Of a stretch of DNA of 64,000 bases, positions 1 through 38,676 are shown in pieces (the stretch's first letter is position 1; every line of letters starts with the position of its first letter). The translations under genes were made by a program, and so were the position numbers. The notes under the pieces are model-generated. The model searched no databases. It was not told the origin of the DNA and saw only the letters and a program-made list of their open reading frames with translations. Origin of the DNA: Escherichia coli phage vB_EcoS_Ace; the sequence record MT833283.1; one strand, written 5' to 3'.

Positions 1-68
1 CCTGGGATTCGAACCCAGAACTGACGGATTAAAGGTCCGCTACTCTTATCCAGTTGAGCTAGCAATCC
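1..68 (-). tRNA. tRNA, 3' acceptor end cut by window edge; anticodon loop read as CCTTTAA (possibly UUU, Lys)
   Basis: Minus-strand hand fold: D-arm GCTC/GAGT, anticodon stem GCGGA/TCCGT, T-arm CTGGG-TTCGAAT-CCCAG; the 3' acceptor strand lies outside the window. C at position 33 is atypical. Confidence 0.55.
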
Positions 69-891: not shown

Positions 892-1089
892 TTATTGTGG
901 TGGAATATTAATATTCCGTCCATCTATGCAGTAAATGGTACTAGGAATTGTAGAGTGTATACTGAAGTTTTGTATTTTACTCTCTCCACCACAGAAATTT
1001 TTTGCAAATTCATACTCCTTGTTAATGGTTGAATCAAATTTAAAGCAACCAGTGAGTAAGAATACAGATAGTAACATAACTTTTTTCAT
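892..1089 (-). CDS. small lipoprotein (lipobox LLTGC), function unknown
   Basis: 65 aa ORF starting MKKVMLLSVFLLTGC (signal peptide plus lipobox Cys); a T5-type promoter lies directly upstream on the minus strand (about 1110-1165). Confidence 0.6.
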   Translation of the reverse strand: MKKVMLLSVFLLTGCFKFDSTINKEYEFAKNFCGGESKIQNFSIHSTIPSTIYCIDGRNINIPPQ

Positions 1090-1139
1090 TTTGCTTTCCT
1101 TCTCAACACTTTATAAGATATATTATACAGAGAATTAAG

Positions 1140-1408
1140 CAAAATAGCAAATGAATTTTTAATAAATTTACTTATTGCGTAGGCCACCTGGAGGGTTCAA
1201 GCCCCACGTCTGACAAAGAAGTTTGCGAGACTTCTCTTAAACGCCAGAATAGACCCGCCGATCTATCGGAACCTACTCAATAAGTAAACTTTCGTTTACC
1301 TACACCTACCTGGTCGGGAGGATTTTCAGCTACTAGAACCGGCCGGAAACTCATCGCCTTGTTTACCTTGTAGTCCCACTATAAGTGACGCGACCTACAA
1401 AGATTTTG
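1140..1408 (-). other. ORF-free GC-elevated segment with tRNA-like stem-loops that I could not fold into a canonical tRNA
   Basis: No ORF of 60 aa or more; hairpin GAAGT-CTCGCAA-ACTTC (minus strand, 1218-1234) looks like an anticodon arm; neighbouring TTCAAGC T-loop-like element has a poor stem. Confidence 0.3.
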
Positions 1409-1479
1409 TGCGGTCGGAGGGAATCGAACCCTCAACTTCTGGTTGGCAACCAAAAATTATACCTTTTAACTACGAACGC
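1409..1479 (-). tRNA. tRNA-Gly (GCC)
   Basis: Acceptor GCGTTCG/CGACCGC (one mismatch), anticodon stem TTTGG/CCAGA with loop TTGCCAA, T-arm GAGGG-TTCGATT-CCCTC; CCA not encoded. Confidence 0.7.
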
Positions 1480-1489
1480 ATAATGAGTC

Positions 1490-1690
1490 AATCTAGGTAG
1501 GACTTGAACCTACTATCACTTGTGCGGATTTACGAGAACCATTCTTTCACTCGAATCGAACGAGCTTCTACCCTCGGCAAGCTGGTGTCCCCTCTCCACC
1601 ACGCTAGAATGATAATTAATGCCTGCTCCTTTGAATCAAGAAGTCCACCCCGGACTTTGGGTCTTTGCAGTACATCACGCTGCTCTGATG
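1490..1690 (-). other. tRNA-like region with two T-arm-like elements, unresolved (tRNA pseudogenes or an atypical long tRNA-like RNA)
   Basis: T-arm-like GTAGG-TTCAAGT-CCTAC (plus 1497-1513) and GCTCG-TTCGATT-CGAGT (plus 1549-1565); candidate acceptor pairing 1490-1496 with 1604-1610 would give about 120 nt, too long for a standard tRNA. Confidence 0.3.
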
Positions 1691-1692
1691 TT

Positions 1693-1769
1693 TGGTACAC
1701 CCACTAGGACTTGAACCTAGAACCTACCGCTTAAGAGGCGGTAGCTCTAACCAATTGAGCTATGGATGT
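1693..1769 (-). tRNA. tRNA-Lys (CTT)
   Basis: Acceptor ACATCCA/TGGGTGT, D-arm GCTC/GAGC, anticodon stem ACCGC/GCGGT with loop CTCTTAA, T-arm CTAGG-TTCAAGT-CCTAG, CCA encoded. Confidence 0.8.
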
Positions 1770-3329: not shown

Positions 3330-3668
3330 TTAAGCAACTACATTTTTCAGAAATTTGATGCCTTTCTTACACTTCTTATACCACCACGTCTTAGAGTTTT
3401 GTCGATTATGAACGCTTGAGATCTTCGCCTCATTAAAGTGCTTCAAAAGCATATAATCAGCCCCTAATTGCTCAAGTGGAATGTGATCTCCACTAGAATC
3501 ATAAACATAAGGCCGTTGATTAGCTCTGTAGTGATATACCTTATTAATCCGGCGTTTAAGCAAAGGACTAGTACAGTATATAAAGAAGTTTTTAGGATGC
3601 ATCAGCATCTCCTTCAAAATTGGTGCACCCCGTTGGTAACGATCCAACCTCTCAAGCTCTTCAGGCAA
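3330..3668 (-). CDS. hypothetical protein
   Basis: 112 aa ORF on the coding strand of this block. Confidence 0.5.
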   Translation of the reverse strand: MPEELERLDRYQRGAPILKEMLMHPKNFFIYCTSPLLKRRINKVYHYRANQRPYVYDSSGDHIPLEQLGADYMLLKHFNEAKISSVHNRQNSKTWWYKKCKKGIKFLKNVVA

Positions 3669-3701
3669 GCGCTAATCCATCTCAGCTAAAGGTGCAAATA
3701 T

Positions 3702-5969: not shown

Positions 5970-6047
5970 TGGTGGCTCCCGGAGGATTCGAACCTACCTA
6001 CCTTTCGCTTATGAGGCGACGGCTCATACCAAATGAGCTTGAGAACC
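5970..6047 (-). tRNA. tRNA with CAT anticodon (second copy; Met or Ile2)
   Basis: Acceptor GGTTCTC/GGGAGCC, D-arm GCTC/GAGC, anticodon loop CTCATAA, T-loop TTCGAAT, CCA encoded. Confidence 0.7.
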
Positions 6048-6052
6048 AAATC

Positions 6053-6146
6053 TGGAGGAAGATGCCAGATTCGAACTGGCACACCGTGTTTCCACAGCTA
6101 CTGGCTGTTTAGCAAACAGCTCCCTTACCATTAGGGTTAATCTTCC
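6053..6146 (-). tRNA. tRNA-Ser (GCT), type II
   Basis: Acceptor GGAAGAT/ATCTTCC perfect, anticodon stem GCTGT/ACAGC with loop TTGCTAA, long variable arm, T-arm GCCAG-TTCGAAT-CTGGC, CCA encoded; 94 nt. Confidence 0.8.
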
Positions 6147-10374: not shown

Positions 10375-11247
10375 ATTGATTCCTTTTGTTAGGTATTTTT
10401 AAGAACTCTCGAAAAAGCTCTTAAAGATACCCGGCGGTAGGTAGGGTCAGCCCCCTCAGATTAAGCTCTGCAGCCCTTCCGTCAGACAATATCCTCCAGT
10501 TTAAGTCAGGGTGACTTTGTGGTTATGTTCTCCGTATGTGAAGAACTCGGTTAGGCTTAGGTCATGACTCCCAGCCTACTGCTGCCACTCAACAGGAATT
10601 ATCGCGAATTACCTGTACTATTGGGCACCATTAGTGACATCTCTCATGCCAGCATTTCCCACTCTCATATTCACGCGGTCTGGTAGAATCACACCTCCGA
10701 TTTTCGATGCGAAGCTGGATGCCTAGTCTCTATGTTAAACGGGGCACACACTAGGCAGTGATCCCGAGTTCCGAGTTTGGTTGAGGCCGTCAGGTTTCCT
10801 CGTGGTTTAGCTGTTTCGATTCTAACCTAATACTGATCAGGCGGCGTACCTCCTGAACCGTCATAGTATGTACTCCAGCAGCGAATGCTTATCCGGTATA
10901 AGCCCGAGTTATCCGATTCTTTCCGACCGCAGGATTCGAACCTGCATCTTCCACCAGTTACGGTTTAATATTACCGTTTATACTAGGACGGCAGTGTTAT
11001 CACATAAGTCAGTTCGACACCCCACTAACATAAACTAGAGAAGAGTTTACGAGATTTCGGGACAGCTCCCGTGTTTTCCGCAGATTTTCAGTTCCCTATC
11101 AATAGCAATAAGCGTTAGCTCGTAGCCTCTCTCAGAGTACTTACTAGTCTCCAACTCACCGACTCTATTCAGTGGAATAGCTATCCTAGTAGGAATCACT
11201 AAACTCACTCAGCGTAATCGGCTCGCTGTTCTCTACTTTATGAATTT
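10375..11247 (-). ncRNA. candidate long structured non-coding RNA or very long leader (ORF-free, GC-elevated, promoter-driven)
   Basis: About 870 nt with no ORF of 60 aa or more in the track; visibly more GC-rich than flanking DNA; strong T5-type promoter at 11248-11276 reads into it; contains canonical T-arm GCAGG-TTCGAAT-CCTGC (plus 10928-10944) without a foldable tRNA body. Confidence 0.4.
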
Positions 11248-30438: not shown

Positions 30439-33228
30439 GTGTTCTCAATCCTACAAGGTCACGCAGGATTTTCCAGAGATAAAGCCACTGGCATCTGGAA
30501 AGAGATCAAAGTGGAAGATTACACCTTTGCAAAGCGATTCTCTAAAGAGCATCCAGAAGGTAAACCAGCTTCCATGCCCTTCAAATTTGATGTACTTGAA
30601 GAACTTGACCCGCAAAACCTTGCTGAAATGTTACCTATCATGCGTCGTCTTACCAAAGACCCGCATATTGTAGCTATTCGTGGTAAATGTCTAGCTCCAA
30701 AAGATAATGTGCGTCGTACCAGAGGAAACTTTAACGTATCCAATCCTAGTCATATTATCGCTATGGACGTGGATGGTATTGTAGATACTGGTGGCTATGA
30801 CAAGTTTAATCTTGTTGGCATGGCACGTCATATTATTAAGATGTTGAATAGTATTAGTGAGGATATGTTTCCTCTTGATGCAGGGTTTATTGCTCATGCA
30901 TCGTCTTCGGCTGGATTAAAACCAGGTATCCGAATGCACTTAATGCTAGAATCTAATGTCAAGGTAACGCAGGGGCAATTAAAATTCTTATTTACATCCA
31001 TCAATGACAGTAGTAAGCAAAAGTATGGCTTTGATATTGCTGACTTAGCTTATTATTCTTCTGTTCAGCTTCACTATTTCGCAGATCCCTTATTTGATGA
31101 TGGTATAGTCGATCCGTTTAAAGCGGAGAATAAACCACGTCTTGTGTATGTTAAGGGTTCGAAAGTGAATCTACCCAATAACCTAGTTGACTTTGAAACA
31201 ACTAGAGGTGAGTTTAAAGAAGAATTCTACTCCTTACTTGACCAAATTAAAGGCAAGAAGGCTGCATCTGATAAAGTGGAAGAAACCATCAGCGAACTAG
31301 AAGAAGCTGAGGATGGGGTGTACCTGCGTATTATCCCAAAACTTTATCACAGAGCGTTAGAAGATGGTGTTGACTTTACGTGGTTAGAACGTGAGATTAA
31401 ACCAGCTTTATCTGAATATATTGCAACTAAAGATAATAGTCGTAATATTCAAGATTACTTTAATAACGGTCGTAAGCAGGCTCTAAAAGCCTTTGTGAAT
31501 AACTCCAAACGTGAGATTCCACCCAACTTAAAAGGTGTACCACTAAAGCGTCTGGACACAGATTCACCGCCAGAAGTTCCATACTTGAAGATTAACATTG
31601 TACCCCCAAAAGGACATTTAACATTTGTTAAGGCAAGTCTTGGTACAGGTAAAACCACAGCAGTAACTAAGTGGCTAGATGCAGGTGTTCTTCCAGGAAA
31701 CTTTATTGCAATCACGAATACTAGGGCACTTGTATCTTCAAACGCGAAGAAATTCGGTGCTGGTCAGTATGATAAGTCAGTTGATATGCTGAACTTCAAA
31801 CGTGGTGCTATTGATCGTATGTCTTCAACTATTCACTCTATCCATAAGTTCAAGAGCTTTGTGGGTCAGATTGATACGATCTTTATTGATGAATGTGACG
31901 CAGTAATGAATGATCTGTTATTCGCCCCGGTTGTTAAAAACCGTCGTGAATGTATTCAGGTTCTTCGCGATATTCTTATTACTGCAAAAACGGTTATCTT
32001 ATCTGATGGTGATATCAGTGCAGAAACGATTGAAGCCTATGGTTCTTTGATTGATTTTGATAAACCGGTCGCGTTCTATAATCATCACCGTAAAATGCTG
32101 GCAAAAGCTCATGCATATGAGTTCCCTGATGAATCCAGTATTTGGGTCGCACTCCAGACTTCACTAGAGATGGGGGAGAAATCAATCCTAGTATCTGACT
32201 GTGGGCCAGATGAACTGAATGAAAAGGGGATGGCGTTACGTCGTAACACTGGTGCGTTAGTTAAAGAAATTCACTCAAACTCTACGTCTGATGTAGATAT
32301 CCGACGTATTCTGGATTACACTACTAATGAGCTAATTGATCAACAGATTGATTGTTTGTTATGTAGTCCATCTGTAACGAGTGGCGTTGACTTTAACTAT
32401 TTTGATAACGTATTTGTTATCACTAGAACCTCAAACCAAGCGCCAAACATGCGTTTTCAAGCAATCAGGCGCGACCGTGGTGCTCAGAACATTTATTATT
32501 TTATTGATAAATCTACGAGTGGATTTTCTGCGGGTTCCGAGCAATATAATATTGACGAAGGTTGGATTGAGTTAGCCCAACAACTGTACGCACGTCGTCG
32601 TGAGCTGGAATCTAGAAACTATACTAGTACTTTGCGTTATTATCTGCTTGATCAGGGTGCAACTATCGATATTTTCAGCGAAAGCTGGGGAACTATCGAA
32701 GGTGCAGGAAAAGAGTATACAGAAGAGCGAATCAAAGCTATTTTGCACTCAACTCCTGAATATTGTGCACCACGTCATGCAGATGCCTATGAAGCCAAGT
32801 TACTTCTGGTTCGCTATTATCATCTGGATTCTATTAAAGATGTAACAGTGGAACACGTTGAACAGTATATCAAGGATAAACCAAACGATAGAGCTGCATT
32901 CTTCCATAAGATGCACGACATGTTCTGGGAAGATATTAAAAAGTGTTCAAACGTAACAATCAAACCGTTTATCGAAGCTCTTAAGAATAAGAAGAAGGAT
33001 TTCTTCCTTAAGACAGGTCAGAGCGCTAACCCAAAATATGCTCGTATGTATCTTGGCATGATGGGTATCGGTAAAGATCTGGATACGGAAAAGATTGTGG
33101 ACTGGTACAGAACTTACTGTAAGATCGAATGTATGCCGATTCCAGTTAAGTTTATGACAGATGAAGAACGTCAGATGCATGAGGAAGCTCTTGCTGAATT
33201 GGGGGCTAGAAATGACAGCGAAGAATAA
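30439..33228 (+). CDS. origin-binding-type SF2 ATPase/helicase (replication initiator candidate)
   Basis: Walker A SLGTGKTTAVT and DExD-like IFIDECD; start reassigned to GTG 30439 with RBS AGGAG 7 nt upstream; the track's ATG at 30319 has no RBS. Confidence 0.6.
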   Translation: MFSILQGHAGFSRDKATGIWKEIKVEDYTFAKRFSKEHPEGKPASMPFKFDVLEELDPQNLAEMLPIMRRLTKDPHIVAIRGKCLAPKDNVRRTRGNFNVSNPSHIIAMDVDGIVDTGGYDKFNLVGMARHIIKMLNSISEDMFPLDAGFIAHASSSAGLKPGIRMHLMLESNVKVTQGQLKFLFTSINDSSKQKYGFDIADLAYYSSVQLHYFADPLFDDGIVDPFKAENKPRLVYVKGSKVNLPNNLVDFETTRGEFKEEFYSLLDQIKGKKAASDKVEETISELEEAEDGVYLRIIPKLYHRALEDGVDFTWLEREIKPALSEYIATKDNSRNIQDYFNNGRKQALKAFVNNSKREIPPNLKGVPLKRLDTDSPPEVPYLKINIVPPKGHLTFVKASLGTGKTTAVTKWLDAGVLPGNFIAITNTRALVSSNAKKFGAGQYDKSVDMLNFKRGAIDRMSSTIHSIHKFKSFVGQIDTIFIDECDAVMNDLLFAPVVKNRRECIQVLRDILITAKTVILSDGDISAETIEAYGSLIDFDKPVAFYNHHRKMLAKAHAYEFPDESSIWVALQTSLEMGEKSILVSDCGPDELNEKGMALRRNTGALVKEIHSNSTSDVDIRRILDYTTNELIDQQIDCLLCSPSVTSGVDFNYFDNVFVITRTSNQAPNMRFQAIRRDRGAQNIYYFIDKSTSGFSAGSEQYNIDEGWIELAQQLYARRRELESRNYTSTLRYYLLDQGATIDIFSESWGTIEGAGKEYTEERIKAILHSTPEYCAPRHADAYEAKLLLVRYYHLDSIKDVTVEHVEQYIKDKPNDRAAFFHKMHDMFWEDIKKCSNVTIKPFIEALKNKKKDFFLKTGQSANPKYARMYLGMMGIGKDLDTEKIVDWYRTYCKIECMPIPVKFMTDEERQMHEEALAELGARNDSEE

Positions 33229-33445
33229 AAAGTGGGAAACAAGGAAGTTTCCCGTAAAAGAACGTAAAACTTCTGTTTACGATACTGCGGAGAAACTATG
33301 TAGGGTTGTACCACCTCGTCTCGCTGGCATCCCTAACGTCTCCATATGGTTACTTAAACAACGGAAGACTCGTGTGTCTCTTCGTATTGGCTTTGAGTTA
33401 GATAAAGTCTATGCTGAACTTGCTTCTTTGCTCAAAGAATCGTAA
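33212..33445 (+). CDS. hypothetical basic protein
   Basis: Start moved to ATG 33212 (MTAKNKKW), overlapping the stop of the upstream gene. Confidence 0.45.
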   Translation: MTAKNKKWETRKFPVKERKTSVYDTAEKLCRVVPPRLAGIPNVSIWLLKQRKTRVSLRIGFELDKVYAELASLLKES

Positions 33446-33454
33446 AAATTTATT

Positions 33455-33482
33455 TGCTTTTAGGAAAATTTTTCTGTATAAT
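33455..33482 (+). promoter_or_regulatory. T5 P-N25-like early promoter with conserved leader and RBS
   Basis: TTATTTGCTTTTAGGAAAATTTTTCTGTATAATAGATTCATAAATTTGAGAGAGGAG matches the classic T5 N25 promoter-leader from memory. Confidence 0.8.
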
Positions 33483-33513
33483 AGATTCATAAATTTGAGA
33501 GAGGAGTTTAAAT

Positions 33514-34218
33514 ATGGCTGGTTCTCGTAGAAAGAAACTTATCCATGAAATCCCTGATGAAACCTTTAAAAAGGTTATTGAACATCTGGAGAATGGTGGT
33601 ACTAAGAAAGCAGCATGTGAAATGCTCGGCGTTTCTTCTAACCCAACTATGGAACGAATGATCGAGGAATGGAGAGATCGTCAGGTTCAAGTTGCGGAAA
33701 TGAAAAAGAAGAAGCGCGGAACACTGATTGAGGGGGTTGAGCTTGCAAACGTAATTGAACAGTATCTTTCTGGTGATTCTTTTGAAGAAATTGCTGATCG
33801 TAACTATCGTTCTGTAGCGATGATTAAATCTGTTCTGGAACGTTATGGTGCTCTGCTTCGTTTAAACGATATTGTTGATCCATTGAATCCTCCGTTGATT
33901 CCTGATGATGCAATGGCAGAAGAATTTGAAGTTGGTGAACTTGTTTGGGTTCCTGGCTATCAGTGTATTGGTGAAATCAAGAAAGCAATGACTAACCCAG
34001 TTGGCTGCTACCGTGTTTGGTTGTTATCAGAAGGTAAACAACAGAACGTTCACTATATGCACTACGAATTAGCTTCTGTTAAACATCTGGAAAAGCTGGG
34101 AGTTGATGTTAAGGCTCTGGGCTTTAAATGGAGTCGTGAAGAAGTTATCACGTTGGTTAATGAAGCTGTTAAAGCTGCCTTGAAACTCGATAAAGAGAAA
34201 GGAAAACGCCGTGAGTAA
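33514..34218 (+). CDS. putative HTH DNA-binding protein
   Basis: 234 aa; N-terminal HTH-like GGTKKAACEMLGVSSNPTMERMIEEWR. Confidence 0.5.
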   Translation: MAGSRRKKLIHEIPDETFKKVIEHLENGGTKKAACEMLGVSSNPTMERMIEEWRDRQVQVAEMKKKKRGTLIEGVELANVIEQYLSGDSFEEIADRNYRSVAMIKSVLERYGALLRLNDIVDPLNPPLIPDDAMAEEFEVGELVWVPGYQCIGEIKKAMTNPVGCYRVWLLSEGKQQNVHYMHYELASVKHLEKLGVDVKALGFKWSREEVITLVNEAVKAALKLDKEKGKRRE

Positions 34219-34474
34219 ACTAACTGATCTGTTAAAAGCTGGAGACGTAAAATATCTCCAGCGAGATAGTTGGGTTAACTGGGATGTTCGTAGCTGCTAC
34301 TCTACCATTATAAAGGTAGATGTTGATAATAATGATATTATCGAATTTACTTGGTGGCCTGATGTAGGTGGGTATACTAATCTCTCTTTTGAGAAAGCAT
34401 CGTGGAAAACCACTGAGCTGACTCTAGAAGAAGCTCTGGCCGACGATTGGGAGATCGTTGAACTAGATATGTAG
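34211..34474 (+). CDS. hypothetical protein
   Basis: 87 aa ORF overlapping the upstream stop. Confidence 0.45.
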   Translation: MSKLTDLLKAGDVKYLQRDSWVNWDVRSCYSTIIKVDVDNNDIIEFTWWPDVGGYTNLSFEKASWKTTELTLEEALADDWEIVELDM

Positions 34475-34581
34475 CAGTTACTGAAAAATTTCAGTTGCTT
34501 AATCCTGTAATTCTTGATATAATATTCTCATAGTTTGAAAAAACTATTCTGTTTAATTCTTAATTAAGGAAATCGAAAAAT

Positions 34582-34992
34582 ATGACTACTCCAACTCAGT
34601 GGACTGATGAACTGTTCGAAAAAATGTCTTCCGACTACGTTGCTCGTATGGAGCAAATCCCAGAAGATGAGCGTCCGGGCGTTAGCATGGAAATTGTTAG
34701 CGAAATTGCTCAGGAAAATGGTGTAACTCCGAACGGTTTTCGTATGAAGCTGACCAAAGCAGGTCTGTATATCAAGAAAGCTGCTGGCTCTACTTCTAAA
34801 TCAAGCGCATCTACTGGAGAAAAAGCTTCTGGTGGTTCTCGTACTTCCAAAGCTCAGGCTCACTCCGATCTTCGCTCTGCATTCTCTGATGCTGGCTTAG
34901 CACCGGACTTCCTGGACGACGCAATCATCGACAAGCTGACCGGTAAAGCAGCTGCTCATCTAGCAGAAGCTATCCGAGCTATCACTAAGTAA
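34582..34992 (+). CDS. hypothetical protein with host-like high-expression codon usage
   Basis: 136 aa; shares an AEIA...G-type motif with the 37909-38676 protein. Confidence 0.5.
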   Translation: MTTPTQWTDELFEKMSSDYVARMEQIPEDERPGVSMEIVSEIAQENGVTPNGFRMKLTKAGLYIKKAAGSTSKSSASTGEKASGGSRTSKAQAHSDLRSAFSDAGLAPDFLDDAIIDKLTGKAAAHLAEAIRAITK

Positions 34993-35028
34993 TTCTTAGA
35001 TAAATCCACCAACACAAGGAATACAGTT

Positions 35029-35325
35029 ATGAATAAAGCTGAAATTATTGCTCAATGCGAAAAATTTGGTGAGTTTTATCTTCATTACGAAAAACTTCGT
35101 CAGAAAGGAACCACGTACCTTCAGGGTACGATGGGATTTGATCCAGCTCAGGATAAATACCTGGCTGAGCGTATTAAACGTGAGCGCATCCGTAAGCCGA
35201 AAGAAGATGAAATCCTCGTTTTCTCTCGTACTAACGATAGCTTCCGTTTCATTCCTGTTGCGAAAGTTCGCCGTGTGACGAGCCTCCAGTCAGAGTTAGA
35301 TCGTGCTTCTCCAGTAGGCCGATAA
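35029..35325 (+). CDS. hypothetical protein
   Basis: 98 aa ORF with RBS AAGGAATACAGTT upstream. Confidence 0.5.
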   Translation: MNKAEIIAQCEKFGEFYLHYEKLRQKGTTYLQGTMGFDPAQDKYLAERIKRERIRKPKEDEILVFSRTNDSFRFIPVAKVRRVTSLQSELDRASPVGR

Positions 35326-35375
35326 GAAACCAATTAGCCCCTATATGGGGCTTTTTGTGTATTTGGGATATGTAA

Positions 35376-35684
35376 ATGAGCGATCAGGTAAATCAAAACT
35401 ATGAAGGACACGTTGACGACCAGTCCATCATGCTTTGGGAGAAGGAGGGAGAACAAGTAAGACTAACCGTATCTGAATTTCGTGGGAATCTATACATGGG
35501 AATTCGTTACTGGCTCCAAGATATTACTGGAGAGTGGTTTCCAACGAAATCCGGCTTCTCTTTTCCTTATACCCTAGAAACTACGTCACAGCTATTCTAC
35601 GCTTTTACGCAAATCCTCAGTGAATCCGAGGTCTTGCATGAAGTACAGAAACGAGCTGAAGAACTCAAAGCCAAGAATGCCTAG
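35376..35684 (+). CDS. hypothetical protein
   Basis: 102 aa ORF. Confidence 0.5.
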   Translation: MSDQVNQNYEGHVDDQSIMLWEKEGEQVRLTVSEFRGNLYMGIRYWLQDITGEWFPTKSGFSFPYTLETTSQLFYAFTQILSESEVLHEVQKRAEELKAKNA

Positions 35685-35751
35685 TTCTTGGCTTTTTCTT
35701 TATAAATGTACTTGCTTTCGACTCAGTTTTCATATATAATATTTATATAAA

Positions 35752-35970
35752 TTGATGAGAGGATCAATTATGGCAATGACAATAACACTTCCAAAGATTC
35801 AAGCAAAACTTAATTTGCTTTCCATAGCAAAGATCAATTATCAGGACAATATTGGCACTCCAAACCAGAAAGCGTACAAAGATGCGTGGTTAAAAGAAGC
35901 TGCTGATTTAGCTGGTATGGCTGCTCAGTATAATAAAGAACTCAAAATGGAAATCGCAGACGATGAATAA
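35752..35970 (+). CDS. hypothetical protein
   Basis: 72 aa ORF after a T5-type promoter/leader (35710-35765). Confidence 0.45.
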   Translation: MMRGSIMAMTITLPKIQAKLNLLSIAKINYQDNIGTPNQKAYKDAWLKEAADLAGMAAQYNKELKMEIADDE

Positions 35971-36934
35971 TGTAAAAGACTTTATCAAACGTTGTCAAGA
36001 AGCGTACTACCAGGGAATGAGTCTTATTTCCGATGAAGAATATGATCGTCTGATTAAAAGATTCCCACTAGAGGAAGAAATCGGACCGAAAGGTGATATT
36101 CCTCACTTGTATCGTATGTATTCTTTGCAGAAAGTCTATTACGGTCGTGGTGATAAAGCTCCATTCAATCCATTAGGTCAGGTTGAAACTGATAAGTTAG
36201 ATGGCTGTGCAATTTCTCTGTTATATATTAATGGTGAATTTGTTCAAGCGTTAACTCGTGGTAACGGTATTCTAGGGAATGATGTAACGCATAATGTTAA
36301 AATGCTAAACATCCCCAAAACTATTTCCCAAAAAGTACCAACTCAAATCACTGGTGAAGTTCTCATTACTAAAGAAGTAGAGAACAAACGTAACTACGCT
36401 TCGGGTGCTATTAACCTGAAAGACAGCGATGATTTCATGCAACGTATTGGTGAAGGTGGTTTAATCTTCGTTGCATATGGTATCCAGTGTTCAGCGGAAA
36501 CAGTCGGTATTACAGAAGCCTATTTAAAAGATATGCTTTGGCTAGAGAATGAGAACTTCTTGACAGTTGTTAATGTTCGTTCCTTCTTTAAGTGGATTCC
36601 GACGGATGGTAAAGTTGTTCGTATTAATGATAACAACAAATTCTTCCGTGAAGGTTGGACTAATAAATTTCCTCGCGGTGCATTTGCTATTAAAGAGGAT
36701 GAAGAAGGCGAAATTACCACACTTGTTAAAGTTGAATGGCAAGTAGGGGCTTCTGGTAAAGTAACTCCAGTTGGTTATTTCGAGCCGGTGATTATTGATG
36801 ATGCCACAATCGTTAAAGCAACTCTTAATAACGTTGATTATATTAACGCTCTCGATTTAGAGATCGGTTGCCAGATTCGAGTGATTCGTGCTGGTGGTGT
36901 AATCCCTTGTATAGTAGAGCGAGTATACGACTAA
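35963..36934 (+). CDS. ligA: NAD-dependent DNA ligase, adenylation/OB part (subunit A of a split ligase)
   Basis: 323 aa; KxDG adenylation motif (TDKLDGCAISLLY), TRGNG motif. Confidence 0.8.
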   Translation: MNNVKDFIKRCQEAYYQGMSLISDEEYDRLIKRFPLEEEIGPKGDIPHLYRMYSLQKVYYGRGDKAPFNPLGQVETDKLDGCAISLLYINGEFVQALTRGNGILGNDVTHNVKMLNIPKTISQKVPTQITGEVLITKEVENKRNYASGAINLKDSDDFMQRIGEGGLIFVAYGIQCSAETVGITEAYLKDMLWLENENFLTVVNVRSFFKWIPTDGKVVRINDNNKFFREGWTNKFPRGAFAIKEDEEGEITTLVKVEWQVGASGKVTPVGYFEPVIIDDATIVKATLNNVDYINALDLEIGCQIRVIRAGGVIPCIVERVYD

Positions 36935-37136
36935 TTCGTAACCCTTTGCTACCCGTTTACCATGTCGGAATTATAAAGTGGTTATTGACATTTTCGCCGC
37001 TTAGGTATATACTATTATCATTCAGTTGAGGGATAGAAAGTTATGGCGAGGGTAAGCAAAGTTAGTTAAAATTGTAGTTGCTAAATGCTTAAATACTTGC
37101 TATAATATTTATATAAATTGATAAGGAAGAAATTTG

Positions 37137-37916
37137 ATGAAAATCGAAATTCCAACACAATGTCCCTCTTGTGGTTCTAAGCTAGATCTTGTCAACGGGC
37201 AATTATTCTGTAGGAATAAGTCCAACTGTCCAGCGCAATCAAGTAAGTTAATCGAGAACTTCTGCACAAAAATGAAGTTAAAGGGCTTTGGCCCGAAAAC
37301 TATTGAGAAGCTGGAGCTGACTAAGATCTCAGAACTGTTTTACCTGACCGAAGAAGATTTGGTAGGAGCTGTGGGTAGCAAGGTTGCCGCTAAGTTGATT
37401 AGCGAGTTAAATACTAAGGTTCGCGGAGACATTGACTTTGGTTCAGTTCTCGGTTCTTTAGGAATTCCTCTTATTGGAGAGGTTGCAGCAAAGAAACTGT
37501 CCCAAAATTGCACTAGCTTCCACGATGTGAAGGCTGACGGCAAGGCTGGAGAAAATTACAAAACCTGGCTAAATTCCCCACAAGGCAAGGATGTTATTGA
37601 ACTACCGTGGAAATTCTCAACTGGTATTCGAGGTGCTAAAGCTGATATCATCATTACAGATGATTTAGTTGCCCAGCCAAATGGAATCACGGTCTGTATT
37701 ACCGGATCTTTGCAAGACTTTGCAAATCGAACGGATGCAACAAACTATTTAGAAAGTCTAGGATATACGGTCAAGAAGTCCGTTACCAAAGACGTCAAAT
37801 ACCTAATCTGTGAGGATGAATCAAAACGTTCTTCCTCATCTTATAAGAAAGCCGAAACGAATGGGATAGAAATCCTGTCGATTAAAGAACTATTGGAGAA
37901 AAATAATAATGTCTAA
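37137..37916 (+). CDS. ligB: NAD-dependent DNA ligase, Zn-finger/HhH/BRCT part (subunit B)
   Basis: CPSCGSKLD...CRNKSNCPAQ zinc finger, HhH-like GFGPKTIEKL, C-terminal BRCT-like region; ATG 37137 with RBS AAGGAAG. Confidence 0.75.
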   Translation: MKIEIPTQCPSCGSKLDLVNGQLFCRNKSNCPAQSSKLIENFCTKMKLKGFGPKTIEKLELTKISELFYLTEEDLVGAVGSKVAAKLISELNTKVRGDIDFGSVLGSLGIPLIGEVAAKKLSQNCTSFHDVKADGKAGENYKTWLNSPQGKDVIELPWKFSTGIRGAKADIIITDDLVAQPNGITVCITGSLQDFANRTDATNYLESLGYTVKKSVTKDVKYLICEDESKRSSSSYKKAETNGIEILSIKELLEKNNNV

Positions 37917-38676
37917 ACTGAACTGGAACGTAGAAGGTGTAACCGAGTCTCTGAAAGCAAAAGCCACTGCTCTGGGTGTTGCTGTAATCTCTCAAGAACA
38001 AGTAGCTGCTATCGCTGCTGAACTGGCTACCGAGACTGGCAAAGACGTTACCGCTCGCTCTGTTGGCTCTAAGCTGCGTAAAGAAGGTTTCGAAGTACAG
38101 AAAGCTAACGAAGTACAGAAATCCCCGTGGACTCCTGAGCAGGAAGCTGAACTAGTTGATTTCCTGAACGCTCATGCTGGTCAGTATACTTACGCTGAAA
38201 TCGCTGCTGCTGTAGCTGGTGGTCAGTTCGGTGCTAAGCAGGTACAGGGTAAGATCCTGAGTCTGGAAATGACCGCTTCTGTTAAGCCAACTGAAAAAGC
38301 TGCTGCTGTTCGTTCCTTCACTCCTGACGAAGAAACTGATTTCGTTAATCAGGTTGTTGCTGGTGCTACTATTGAAGCTATCGCTGCTCACTTCGGTCGC
38401 AATATTAAGCAGATTCGTGGTAAAGCTCTGAGCCTGCTTCGTGAAGGTCGTATCGCTGCTATGCCGGTACAGGAAACTTCAAGTGCTAAAACTCGTGAAG
38501 ATCTGTTAGAAGGTCTGGATCTGGCTAACATGACTGTTGCTGAGATCGCTGAGAAAACTGGTAAGTCTGAGCGCGGTGTTAAATCTATGCTGTCTCGTCG
38601 TGGTCTGGTTGCTAAGGACTATGATGGTGCCGCTAAGCGTGCTAAACTGGATGCAAAAGCTGCGGCTGCTGAATAA
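37909..38676 (+). CDS. Ala-rich protein with repeated HTH-like motifs (abundant early protein candidate)
   Basis: 255 aa; three or four repeats of the pattern AEIAxxxGxxxxxVxxKxLSL; codon usage enriched in ctg/ggt/cgt/gct unlike neighbours. Confidence 0.55.
   Translation: MSKLNWNVEGVTESLKAKATALGVAVISQEQVAAIAAELATETGKDVTARSVGSKLRKEGFEVQKANEVQKSPWTPEQEAELVDFLNAHAGQYTYAEIAAAVAGGQFGAKQVQGKILSLEMTASVKPTEKAAAVRSFTPDEETDFVNQVVAGATIEAIAAHFGRNIKQIRGKALSLLREGRIAAMPVQETSSAKTREDLLEGLDLANMTVAEIAEKTGKSERGVKSMLSRRGLVAKDYDGAAKRAKLDAKAAAAE

What the first reader, a model, noticed from the sequence alone, without database searches (positions are those of the whole stretch)
1140..1700. Unresolved tRNA-like sequences: tandem T-arm-like elements and an anticodon-like hairpin
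Between well-formed tRNAs lie GC-rich, ORF-free stretches. At 1490-1610 two T-arm-like hairpins occur in tandem, and the only acceptor-like pairing I find spans about 120 nt. At 1218-1234 a clean anticodon-arm-like hairpin (loop CTCGCAA) has no adjacent canonical T-arm. These may be tRNA pseudogenes, tRNAs with insertions, or tRNA-derived regulatory RNAs.
Basis: seen in the sequence. Interest (0 to 1): 0.5.

Follow-up and report, generated by a model that had tools for sequence, protein, structure and literature searches.

The report
Phage T5 tRNA-like stable RNAs
The two odd stretches are this phage's copies of two small stable RNAs first annotated in phage T5 (RNA2 and RNAIV); both are real, conserved, tRNA-shaped RNAs that tRNA finders miss, and nobody yet knows what they do.

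Summary
The window is a T5-like phage (99.5% identical to Escherichia phage IrmaTschudi). Its tRNA cluster is on the minus strand.

- **1489-1610(-)** is the orthologue of T5 rna2, annotated "tRNA-like stable RNA, unknown function".
- **1165-1291(-)**, which holds the 1217-1235 hairpin, is the orthologue of T5 rnaIV.
- ARAGORN and Rfam call only tRNA-Gly(GCC) at 1408-1479 between them.

RNA2 is a tRNA cloverleaf whose 7-nt anticodon loop is replaced by a 55-nt structured insert. The insert contains the second T-arm-like hairpin. Across 31 distinct homologues, 93% of cells pair, against 44% or less in shifted controls. An unbiased scan finds one extra covarying tertiary pair.

The insert is nearly invariant in T5-like phages, T4-like Acinetobacter phages and large metagenomic phages. 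It is absent from 185,579 bacterial species genomes, apart from one phage-like contig.

RNAIV is a cloverleaf-like four-way junction closed by a roughly 19-bp stem, with an invariant CUCGCAA loop.

Neither RNA is a pseudogene. Both lie inside a deletion carried by a viable T5 mutant. Function is unknown. My best guess, at about 35%, is a tRNA-mimic decoy. The elements are already known; the structure model and the wider distribution of RNA2 are new.

The parts
1489..1610 (-). RNA2 orthologue (T5 rna2/T5s06): a 122-nt tRNA-like RNA. Layout in RNA sense: acceptor 5' strand 1610-1604; D arm 1601-1583; anticodon-stem 5' strand 1582-1578; insert 1577-1523; anticodon-stem 3' strand 1522-1518; variable loop 1517-1514; T arm 1513-1497; acceptor 3' strand 1496-1490; discriminator G at 1489. 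No CCA is encoded.
   Evidence: 88% identical to T5 RNA2 and syntenic with it. Covariance model R1 scores 131.7 bits, one copy per genome. Covariation.
1523..1577 (-). Conserved 55-nt insert ('cargo') replacing the anticodon loop: CCGAGGGUAGAAG, then hairpin 1 (CUCG-UUCGAUU-CGAG, 1564-1550), then UGAAAGA, then hairpin 3 (AUGG...CCGC, 1542-1524). A tertiary/pseudoknot pair joins G1568-C1534 and A1567-U1535.
   Evidence: Core TTCNATTCNNNTGRAAGAATGGTTC is invariant across T5-like, Acinetobacter T4-like and metagenomic members. Hairpin 1 is 100% paired with CG/GC/AU/UA swaps. Columns 46-79 show AU20 UA6 CG3 GC1 and rank first in an all-pairs mutual-information scan.
1165..1291 (-). RNAIV orthologue (T5 rnaIV/T5s05), including its closing stem. 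The part matching the annotated mature T5 RNA is about 1176-1278. It is a four-way junction: a terminal stem of about 19 bp (AAGUUUACUUAUU..GUAGG / CCUAC..AAUAAGUAAAUU), a D-like helix, a long anticodon-like arm and a T-like hairpin whose loop is not conserved.
   Evidence: 92% identical to T5 RNAIV and sits immediately upstream of the P13a promoter homologue. Model R2 scores 146.7 bits. Covariation. RNAalifold gives the same fold.
1217..1235 (-). Upper part of the RNAIV anticodon-like arm: 6-bp stem AGAAGU/ACUUCU with the invariant 7-nt loop CUCGCAA.
   Evidence: The loop is invariant in all 25 distinct homologues, including the 77%-identical Eps7 lineage. The stem is 100% paired, with 3 compensatory pairs.
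1408..1479 (-). Ordinary tRNA-Gly(GCC) lying between the two stable RNAs. It is present in BF23 and Epseptimavirus phages and absent at this spot in T5.
   Evidence: ARAGORN and Rfam 61.1 bits. BF23 annotation tRNAG2. Presence/absence across loci.
1287..1407 (-). Spacer X1 between tRNA-Gly and RNAIV. It has a lineage-variable hairpin (1364-1400) followed by a conserved, unassigned module of about 75 nt (1287-1363; AAACAAGGCGAUGAGUUUCCGGCCGGUUCUAGU.GCU...).
   Evidence: Modular comparison across loci. No Rfam or ARAGORN call. Not resolved further.
1613..1692 (-). Spacer X2: a conserved element of about 80 nt with three hairpins, starting right after the CCA end of tRNA-Lys(CTT).
   Evidence: 133 phage records, most at least 94% identical, including Klebsiella Sugarlandvirus. 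An 80%-identical copy follows tRNA-Lys(UUU) in Klebsiella myovirus FBKp34, with compensatory changes in two hairpins.
1122..1150 (-). Sigma-70 promoter (TTGCTA, 17 nt, TATAAT), homologue of T5 promoter P13a. It starts the next transcription unit, so RNAIV is the last element of the upstream unit.
   Evidence: Scan. 91% identical to the annotated T5 P13a.

Best explanation
**What it is (shown, confidence about 0.95).**

The interval is part of the minus-strand polycistronic tRNA operon of a T5-like phage. It carries the orthologues of two small RNAs annotated in T5 and BF23 as stable RNAs of unknown function.

RNA2 (1489-1610) is a tRNA cloverleaf with a 7-bp acceptor stem, a D arm with GG, a 5-bp anticodon stem, a 4-nt variable loop and a canonical T arm. 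Its anticodon loop is replaced by a 55-nt structured insert. The insert holds a G-rich D-loop-like segment, a second canonical T-loop hairpin, a third hairpin and one covarying tertiary pair.

RNAIV (1165-1291) is a cloverleaf-like four-way junction. Its ends form a long A/U-rich stem, and its long anticodon-like arm displays an invariant CUCGCAA loop.

**How it most likely works (inferred, about 0.35).**

The tRNA-like shell lets the host tRNA-processing machinery excise and stabilise the RNA. That would mean RNase P and 3' trimming for RNA2, and a double-strand-specific cut such as RNase III in the long stem for RNAIV. In effect the shell is a natural tRNA scaffold.

The invariant insert of RNA2 and the invariant loop of RNAIV would be the working parts. 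They would act in trans as tRNA mimics. RNA2 would offer two elbow modules, each a T-loop plus a GG loop. These would bind or titrate a host factor that recognises tRNA. The most plausible target is a tRNA-directed defence nuclease or a tRNA-processing or tRNA-modifying enzyme.

Under this reading they are accessory counter-defence or host-takeover RNAs, not decoders.
For: **Identity**
- BLAST to T5 places 1487-1614 on rna2 and 1085-1292 on P13a plus rnaIV.
- BF23 has the same order: RNAIV, tRNA-Gly, RNA2.

**RNA2 structure**
- A1 (MAFFT, 24 sequences): 91.2% paired against 30-44% slid, 22/32 pairs compensatory, 0/500 shuffles.
- A4 (31 sequences): 93.0% paired against 44% or less; anticodon stem and hairpin 1 are 100% paired.
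- Acceptor stems differ completely yet pair: ATTCTAG/CTAGAAT, TACGGGG/TCCCGTA, GGGTACT/GGTACCC, GACTTTG/CAAAGTC, AGACAAT/ATTGTCT.
- True tRNAs match model R1 over its full length.
- The tertiary pair ranks first in the mutual-information scan and was not part of the model.

**Selection**
- RNA2 is found in about 423 phage records and RNAIV in 406, despite heavy mosaicism around them.
- The insert is conserved in Acinetobacter T4-like phages 133, Acj9 and ZZ1, and in large metagenomic phage contigs.
- It is absent from bacterial genomes except one phage-like contig.

**Accessory role and context**
- The viable T5Mos deletion 30661-38625 removes both genes. The same region supplies the anti-PARIS tRNA-Lys (PMC11464382), the anti-retron tRNA-Tyr and ORF75 (PMC11555353).

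**RNAIV**
- Searches support the fold.
- The annotated T5 ends fall opposite each other inside the long stem.
Against: - There is no direct evidence for any trans-acting function, binding partner or processing enzyme.
- "Stable RNA" rests on GenBank annotation, not on data I could read.
- The acceptor shell is degenerate in the T4-like Acinetobacter copies: no D stem, and a 4-6-bp terminal stem offset from the T stem. The scaffold idea therefore does not hold uniformly.
- No CCA is encoded here, and discriminators vary (G, A, U).
- The anti-PARIS and anti-retron screens of this region singled out tRNA-Lys, tRNA-Tyr and ORF75, not these RNAs. I did not map the cloned fragments onto RNA2 or RNAIV, so this is only weak evidence against.
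- RNAIV covariation comes largely from one divergent lineage (Eps7, bobsandoy, STWB21), so independent events are few.
- A4 was aligned to the model and leans towards it.
Confidence: 0.45

Rival explanations
1. These are purely cis-acting processing and stability elements. Their tRNA-like shapes recruit RNase P, RNase III or RNase E to cut the polycistronic tRNA/mRNA precursor. RNAIV's long stem caps and protects the 3' end of the transcription unit that ends just before promoter P13a. The excised pieces are stable by-products.
For: Both lie between tRNAs in one operon. RNAIV is the last element before a promoter. Its roughly 19-bp terminal stem is invariant. The variable T-like loop of RNAIV and the degenerate shells in Acinetobacter phages show that not all of the tRNA likeness is needed. 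X2 similarly behaves as a tRNA 3' trailer.
Against: Punctuation needs shape, not sequence. Yet the single-stranded parts of the RNA2 insert and the RNAIV loop are invariant across phages that share almost nothing else. T5 tRNAs elsewhere are processed without such elements. No terminator-like site was found at RNAIV.
Confidence: 0.22
2. They are antisense or base-pairing small RNAs. The exposed conserved segments (UGAAAGAAUGGUUC, CUCGCAA) pair with a host or phage RNA.
For: Both have long, invariant and probably unpaired stretches. Sponge-like roles of tRNA spacers are known in E. coli (own knowledge: 3'ETS-leuZ).
Against: Complementarity to E. coli 16S, 23S and 5S rRNA is no better than for shuffled queries (17 to 100 of 100 shuffles did as well). 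The target would have to be conserved from Enterobacteria to Acinetobacter and unknown environmental hosts. mRNAs and host tRNAs were not tested.
Confidence: 0.1
3. They are decaying tRNA pseudogenes, or fused relics of tRNA genes left by recombination and homing-endonuclease traffic in this mosaic region.
For: The region is full of HNH endonuclease genes, indels and degenerate tRNA-like pieces. Parts of the insert resemble tRNA fragments: a class-II-like D loop and a T arm (and by eye). An origin from tRNA genes is likely.
Against: Helices are kept by compensatory substitutions. The insert is nearly invariant across families. There is one copy per genome, retained in more than 400 genomes.
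Confidence: 0.05
4. RNA2 is a precursor of a real decoding tRNA, and the 55-nt insert is an intron that is spliced out.
For: The insert sits exactly where tRNA introns sit. The shell is a complete cloverleaf, and CCA is encoded in the Klebsiella and Pantoea copies.
Against: Bacterial tRNA introns are group I introns of 200 nt or more, and Rfam finds none. No conserved 7-nt anticodon loop can be reconstituted. The insert, not the shell, is the conserved part. Acceptor and discriminator vary, so there is no constant aminoacylation identity.
Confidence: 0.03
5. The stretch encodes a small protein: the 56-aa GTG ORF at 1530-1700(-), annotated as a hypothetical protein in IrmaTschudi.
For: The ORF exists and is annotated in some records.
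Against: It has no PHROG family. It spans the 3' end of tRNA-Lys, X2 and half of RNA2. These modules occur independently in other phages, so the ORF is not conserved. The substitution pattern is RNA-like, with paired changes.
Confidence: 0.02

Closest known systems
Bacteriophage T5 / BF23 RNA2 (gene rna2, T5s06; 'tRNA-like stable RNA with unknown functions')
   Same: It is the orthologue: 88-89% identity over about 125 nt, the same strand and the same neighbours.
   Different: In this window tRNA-Gly(GCC) plus about 120 nt are inserted between it and RNAIV, as in BF23. The acceptor stem carries a U.U mismatch. The database records give neither a structure nor a function.
Bacteriophage T5 / BF23 RNAIV (gene rnaIV, T5s05; 'stable RNA with unknown functions')
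   Same: It is the orthologue: 92% identity, directly upstream of promoter P13a.
   Different: The T-like hairpin loop differs at most positions (CUUGAAC here, UUGGUAG in T5). That argues this loop is not functional as a T-loop.
Canonical tRNA (Rfam RF00005)
   Same: RNA2 has the acceptor stem, a D arm with GG, the anticodon stem, a variable loop and a T arm with UUCRANU. tRNAs align to its model end to end.
   Different: A 55-nt structured insert replaces the 7-nt anticodon loop, there is no anticodon, and RF00005 and ARAGORN do not call it. RNAIV has only the overall four-arm shape.
Bacteriophage T4 RNAC / RNAD (species 1 and 2 stable RNAs in the T4 tRNA cluster)
   Same: They are the same kind of thing: stable RNAs of about 120-140 nt, co-transcribed with phage tRNAs, with function unknown since the 1970s. 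RNAC also ends in a T arm plus an acceptor-like pairing.
   Different: Homology is not demonstrable: R1 gives 15.6 bits, E 0.33, on part of RNAC. A shared TCGATTCGAG...CGTAAG string sits in a different structural context.
Engineered 'tRNA scaffold' for recombinant RNA expression, and tmRNA/YrlA-type natural tRNA mimics (own knowledge)
   Same: Both use a tRNA shell with a foreign structured RNA in place of the anticodon loop, which gives processing and stability. They are tRNA-like modules used for something other than decoding.
   Different: No tag reading frame is detected and there is no tmRNA or YrlA hit in ARAGORN or Rfam. YrlA has the opposite topology, with its ends in the 'anticodon' stem.

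Membership tests
T5 RNA2 family (rna2) | Sequence homology to T5 rna2 over its full length, on the tRNA-coding strand | tested here: met
   88% over 125 nt. Model R1 scores 131.7 bits here and 140.7 bits on T5 itself.
T5 RNA2 family (rna2) | Conserved insert core TTCNATTCNNNTGRAAGAATGGTTCNCGTAA flanked by a covarying anticodon-type stem and a 3' T arm | tested here: met
   Present at 1523-1577. The flanking stem is 100% paired in 31 sequences.
T5 RNA2 family (rna2) | Accumulates as a discrete stable RNA in infected cells | not testable with these tools
   Known only from the GenBank notes for T5 and BF23.
T5 RNAIV family (rnaIV) | Sequence homology and position immediately upstream of promoter P13a | tested here: met
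   92% identity with the promoter homologue adjacent. Model R2 scores 146.7 bits.
T5 RNAIV family (rnaIV) | Four-way junction with a long terminal stem and an invariant CUCGCAA loop | tested here: met
   97.3% of cells paired, loop invariant in 25 sequences.
Canonical tRNA | 7-nt anticodon loop with U33 and an anticodon on a 5-bp stem at the standard distance from the elbow | tested here: not met
   RNA2 has a 55-nt insert instead. RNAIV has a 7-nt loop with U at the second position, but on an arm of about 11 bp plus an internal loop.
Canonical tRNA | Detected by tRNA models (RF00005 at gathering score, ARAGORN default) | tested here: not met
   No call at 1140-1407 or 1480-1692.
Canonical tRNA | 7-bp acceptor stem, T arm with T-loop, D loop with GG | tested here: met
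   Met for RNA2. Not met for RNAIV, whose T-like loop is variable.
Canonical tRNA | 3' NCCA end and aminoacylation | tested here: inconclusive
   CCA is not encoded here or in T5. It is encoded in the Klebsiella vB_Kpn_3, Pantoea AAS21 and L058 copies. Charging cannot be tested.
tRNA pseudogene | Relaxed constraint: helices decay and there are no compensatory changes | tested here: not met
   22-24 compensatory pairs for RNA2 and 11 for RNAIV.
tmRNA | tRNA-like domain plus a tag reading frame and pseudoknots; detected by ARAGORN or Rfam | tested here: not met
   ARAGORN -m finds none. The only Rfam hit is tmRNA_permuted at 12 bits, E 3.8, lying mostly over tRNA-Gly.
Group I intron-containing tRNA | Intron of 200 nt or more with a P1-P9 core in the anticodon loop | tested here: not met
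   The insert is 55 nt and no intron family hit was found.
T4 RNAC (species 1 RNA) | Detectable homology to T4 rnaC | tested here: inconclusive
   R1 gives 15.6 bits, E 0.33, on part of rnaC. A short shared string is present, but in another structural context.

The most novel reading that the evidence does not exclude
RNA2 defines a widespread RNA class, not catalogued in Rfam, of large virulent phages. Members occur in Demerecviridae, T4-like Acinetobacter phages, 160-250-kb metagenomic phages, and a 47-gene tRNA array on a 1.46-Mb contig. In this class a tRNA shell carries an almost invariant 55-nt 'second elbow' module. The module would act in trans as a decoy or inhibitor of a universally conserved tRNA-recognising factor, for example a tRNA-cleaving defence nuclease. 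That would give the first function for the classic T5- and T4-type 'stable RNAs'.
Probability: 0.25. Interest if true: 0.75.

Novelty: already known. Interest (0 to 1): 0.4.

Why it matters
Phage tRNA clusters have recently been shown to be counter-defence arsenals: T5 tRNA-Lys works against PARIS, and tRNA-Tyr against retron Eco7/PtuAB. The non-tRNA stable RNAs that sit among them in T5, and the analogous RNAC and RNAD in T4, have had no function assigned for decades. Modern pipelines leave them unannotated or cover them with spurious ORFs.

This work does three things:
- It shows that the two odd stretches are those RNAs.
- It gives them covariation-backed structures.
- It shows that the RNA2 insert is conserved far beyond T5-like phages.

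That identifies specific nucleotides and one tertiary pair to mutate, and it provides a covariance model for annotation. If the decoy idea holds, it would add RNA mimics to the phage anti-immunity repertoire.

Tried and rejected
- **Standard tRNA and RNA-family detectors.** ARAGORN with default, intron, tmRNA, mitochondrial and lowered thresholds, and Rfam at gathering score and at E<=10, gave no credible call for either element.
- **Single-sequence MFE folding.** Uninformative.
- **RNAalifold on the MAFFT alignment of RNA2.** It recovered only the two T-arm hairpins. The 5' ends of Slocum, L031 and the T4-like copies were misaligned, so I used explicit pair counts and a model-based alignment instead.
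- **Alternative CCGA/UCGG tetraloop hairpin in RNAIV.** It is slightly worse than the GAUAGA/UCUAUU helix (96% against 100% paired). RNAalifold prefers the latter, extended to 8 bp.
- **Mini-hairpin AGAA-UGG-UUCU in the RNA2 insert.** Rejected, because its variable base covaries with column 46 and not with the invariant A.
- **Small ORF in RNA2 (AUG GUU CUC ... UGA).** The stop is not conserved in the 133 and L031 copies (by eye).
- **Antisense to rRNA.** No signal.
- **Homology of RNA2 to T4 RNAC.** Not demonstrable.
- **Bacterial genome hits.** Matches in Deefgea, Chitinibacter and a Bacteroidia MAG are chance pattern matches with no model hit. Several IMG/VR pattern hits were coding-sequence coincidences.
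- **Literature.** No open-access paper discussing T5 RNA2 or RNAIV function was found.
Full report
**Where we are.** The window is a T5-like phage (Demerecviridae, Epseptimavirus). Positions 1100-1720 are 99.5% identical to Escherichia phage IrmaTschudi, and more than 500 T5-like records match. All tRNA genes here are on the minus strand. The transcription order in the finding is as follows:
- tRNA-Asp
- tRNA-Lys(CTT), 1769-1693
- 1692-1480, unresolved
- tRNA-Gly(GCC), 1479-1408
- 1407-about 1165, unresolved
- a sigma-70 promoter, 1150-1122
- a small ORF, then tRNA-Pro and tRNA-Met

**Checking the observation.**
- Two T-arm-like hairpins lie at 1550-1564 and 1497-1513.
- An acceptor-like pairing, 1604-1610 with 1490-1496, encloses about 120 nt.
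- A 6-bp hairpin with loop CUCGCAA lies at 1217-1235.

ARAGORN, in default, intron, tmRNA and relaxed modes, resolves none of them. Rfam does not either, at gathering score or at E<=10. Single-sequence folding is not significant.

**Identity.** The annotated T5 genome (NC_005859, identical to AY543070) carries two misc_RNA features between tRNA-Pro and tRNA-Asp. One is rnaIV ("stable RNA with unknown functions"). The other is rna2 ("tRNA-like stable RNA with unknown functions"). Promoter P13a lies just downstream of rnaIV.

BLAST puts window 1085-1292 on P13a plus rnaIV at 91% identity. It puts window 1487-1614 on rna2 at 88%. BF23 has the window's exact arrangement, RNAIV, a gap, tRNA-Gly(GCC), RNA2, and annotates both RNAs. 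So the finding is the pair of T5 stable-RNA orthologues. Most modern T5-like records annotate nothing here, or a spurious hypothetical protein. That ORF, 1530-1700(-), has no PHROG family and straddles three independently mobile modules.

**Anatomy of RNA2 (1489-1610, minus strand).** In RNA sense it reads:
- ATTCTAG, acceptor 5' strand
- CG
- TGGTG-GAGAGGGGA-CACCA, D arm
- GCTTG, anticodon stem 5' strand
- a 55-nt insert
- CAAGT, anticodon stem 3' strand
- GATA
- GTAGG-TTCAAGT-CCTAC, T arm
- CTAGATT, acceptor 3' strand
- G, discriminator

The insert reads CCGAGGGTAGAAG, then CTCG-TTCGATT-CGAG, then TGAAAGA, then ATGG-TTCTCGTAAAT-CCGC, then A.

Homologues came from T5-like phages and from Klebsiella vB_Kpn_3, Serratia Slocum, Pantoea AAS21 and Erwinia KEY. 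Others came from a 164-kb IMG/VR contig and from T4-like Acinetobacter phages 133, Acj9, ZZ1, AB1I1M-1 and AB2I2.

On a MAFFT alignment of 24 distinct sequences, the proposed structure pairs 91.2% of cells. Slid controls pair 30-44%. Twenty-two of 32 pairs show double changes, and 0/500 shuffles reach this. Acceptor stems share no sequence yet all pair. The Klebsiella and Pantoea copies encode a discriminator plus CCA.

A covariance model (R1) finds exactly one copy per genome. Genuine tRNAs match it end to end at 20-33 bits, with the insert deleted. This shows the shell is a tRNA cloverleaf.

**Wider distribution.** A metagenome scan with the insert core added five more divergent lineages.
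- One lies in a 247-kb contig.
- One lies inside an array of 47 tRNA genes on a 1.46-Mb contig.

Two scans of 185,579 bacterial species genomes gave only one true hit. It is a 167-kb contig with 14 tRNAs that looks like a phage. The other pattern hits have no model match.

On the 31-sequence model alignment, 93.0% of cells pair against 44% or less in controls. The anticodon stem and hairpin 1 are 100% paired.

An all-against-all mutual-information scan ranks a pair that was not in the model first. It joins the third base before hairpin 1 to the variable base in GGUUC-N-CG. Its states are AU 20, UA 6, CG 3 and GC 1, and it sits beside an almost invariant G-C. This implies a pseudoknot or tertiary contact inside the insert.

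The Acinetobacter copies keep the insert, the anticodon stem and the 3' T arm. They have a reduced 5' shell. The conserved unit is therefore the insert plus the two T arms, each with a nearby invariant GG.

**Anatomy of RNAIV (1165-1291).** Twenty-five distinct homologues were aligned, including the Eps7, bobsandoy and STWB21 lineage at about 77% identity. The RNA forms a four-way junction with these arms:
- An invariant terminal stem of about 12 bp, continued by GUAGG/CCUAC. This becomes GUAAG/CUUAC in the Eps7 lineage.
- A D-like helix, GAUAGA/UCUAUU, which becomes GACACA/UGUGUU.
- A long arm, CUGGC/GUCAG plus AGAAGU/ACUUCU, capped by the invariant loop CUCGCAA.
- A T-like hairpin whose 7-nt loop is not conserved.

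Of all cells, 97.3% pair, against 52.5% or less in controls, and 11 pairs show double changes. RNAalifold finds the same fold on its own.

Most of the covariation comes from one lineage, so the number of independent events is small. Model R2 finds RNAIV only in T5-like phages.

The T5-annotated ends lie opposite each other inside the long stem. That is what a double-strand-specific cut would give. RNase III is my inference, not a result.

**What they are not.**
- They are not pseudogenes, because the helices covary and the insert is invariant.
- They are not tmRNA, not group I intron-containing tRNAs, and not any Rfam family.
- They are not protein-coding.
- They are not antisense to rRNA.
- They are not demonstrably homologous to T4 RNAC.

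**Function.** Nothing is known. The database notes say "unknown functions". The analogous T4 RNAC and RNAD were still of unknown role in 2010 and 2022. I found no open-access paper on the T5 RNAs.

Two published facts frame the question.
- The viable mutant T5Mos lacks positions 30661-38625. On the T5 map, that interval includes rnaIV (32838-32940) and rna2 (32959-33083). So both should be dispensable on laboratory E. coli.
- The same region supplies tRNA-Lys, which neutralises PARIS, tRNA-Tyr, which rescues infection from retron Eco7, and ORF75.

Two further points bear on it. The insert is invariant across phages of unrelated hosts. RNA2 also has a tRNA-like double-elbow design.

Together these make a trans-acting tRNA mimic or decoy my preferred mechanism, at about 35%. 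In this model the tRNA shell serves as a natural processing and stability scaffold. A purely cis processing or 3'-end-protection role is the main rival, at about 22%, and is stronger for RNAIV. These mechanistic statements are inferences.

**The remaining sequence in the interval.** X1 (1287-1407) consists of a lineage-variable hairpin and a conserved module of about 75 nt, which I did not resolve.

X2 (1613-1692) is a separate three-hairpin element. It always starts right after the CCA end of a tRNA or tRNA-like gene:
- tRNA-Lys(CTT) here
- tRNA-Lys(UUU) in the Klebsiella myovirus FBKp34, at 80% identity with compensatory changes
- a degenerate tRNA-like gene in Sugarlandvirus

**Verdict.** The elements themselves are already known as T5 rna2 and rnaIV.

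The new results are these:
- covariation-supported structures for both RNAs
- the tertiary pair in the RNA2 insert
- RNA2 as a family reaching T4-like Acinetobacter phages and large uncultured phages
- the absence of that family from Rfam

Interest is moderate, at 0.4.

Noticed in passing
window 1613-1692 (-); L029 1501-1583; L056 601-681: An element of about 80 nt with three hairpins (X2) begins immediately after the CCA end of a tRNA or tRNA-like gene in three phage groups. It follows tRNA-Lys(CTT) in Epseptimavirus and tRNA-Lys(UUU) in Klebsiella myovirus FBKp34, where it is 80% identical with compensatory changes ACCC/GGGU to ACUC/GAGU and CUUCUU/AAGGAG to CCUCUU/AAGGGG. It follows a degenerate tRNA-like gene in Sugarlandvirus. 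It may be a mobile tRNA 3'-trailer RNA.
   Followed up: partly
window 1287-1363 (-): A conserved module of about 75 nt (AAACAAGGCGAUGAGUUUCCGGCCGGUUCUAGU.GCUGAAAAUCCUCCCGACCAGG...) sits directly upstream of RNAIV in BF23 and Epseptimavirus phages but is absent in T5. The window carries an A where its relatives have the C that would pair in a GGCGA/UCGCU stem. No family is assigned.
   Followed up: partly
L006 (Salmonella phage S124-like), RNA-sense insert between tRNA-Gly and RNAIV: Another long tRNA-like gene of about 100 nt (GTGGAGA...GCAGGTTCGACTCCTGT-CTCTCCAC-A-CCA) has a proper acceptor stem, T arm and CCA but a large internal insert. This suggests that several different 'tRNA shell plus cargo' RNAs circulate in T5-like tRNA regions.
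   Followed up: no
L001 4502-4645 (T5 RNA1): T5 RNA1 reads as a tRNA-Leu(UAA)-like cloverleaf with a class-II variable arm. An insertion of about 40 nt lies between the anticodon stem (ACUGC) and an intact CUUAAAA loop. It is a second example of a tRNA shell with an insert at the anticodon.
   Followed up: no
L057 1-8283 (metagenome contig Ga0308158_10000004, 1.46 Mb): An array of 47 tRNA genes in 8.3 kb contains an RNA2-family member at 6023-6138. The contig is too long for a known phage, so this may be a cellular or mobile-element tRNA array.
   Followed up: no
window 1-68, 3624-3695, 10921-10992 (-): Rfam calls three further tRNAs that ARAGORN does not list. The first is cut by the window edge. 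The other two score low (33.4 and 29.7 bits) and may correspond to T5 tRNA-Phe and the tRNA-like RNAX region.
   Followed up: no
window 892-1089 (-): The 65-aa ORF between promoter P13a and tRNA-Pro, in the position of T5.066, matches the PHROG 'Rz-like spanin' family (phrog_6073, E 1.5e-24). It lies inside the tRNA cluster, far from the lysis genes.
   Followed up: no
window 1401-1410 (-): This phage's tRNA-Gly(GCC) is followed by CACAAAAUC, whereas relatives have CACCAAAU. The encoded CCA end has therefore been lost here and in IrmaTschudi.
   Followed up: no
window 1490-1496 / 1604-1610: The Epseptimavirus RNA2 acceptor stem has a U.U mismatch at the second pair (CTAGATT here, CTAGAAT in Tequintavirus). 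T5 itself has a U.G at the third pair.
   Followed up: yes
L031 8968-9094 (+): The RNA2 model gives a weak full-length hit (20.6 bits, 127 nt) at a second site in the 164-kb IMG/VR contig. ARAGORN finds no tRNA anywhere in this locus. It may be another long tRNA-like RNA.
   Followed up: no
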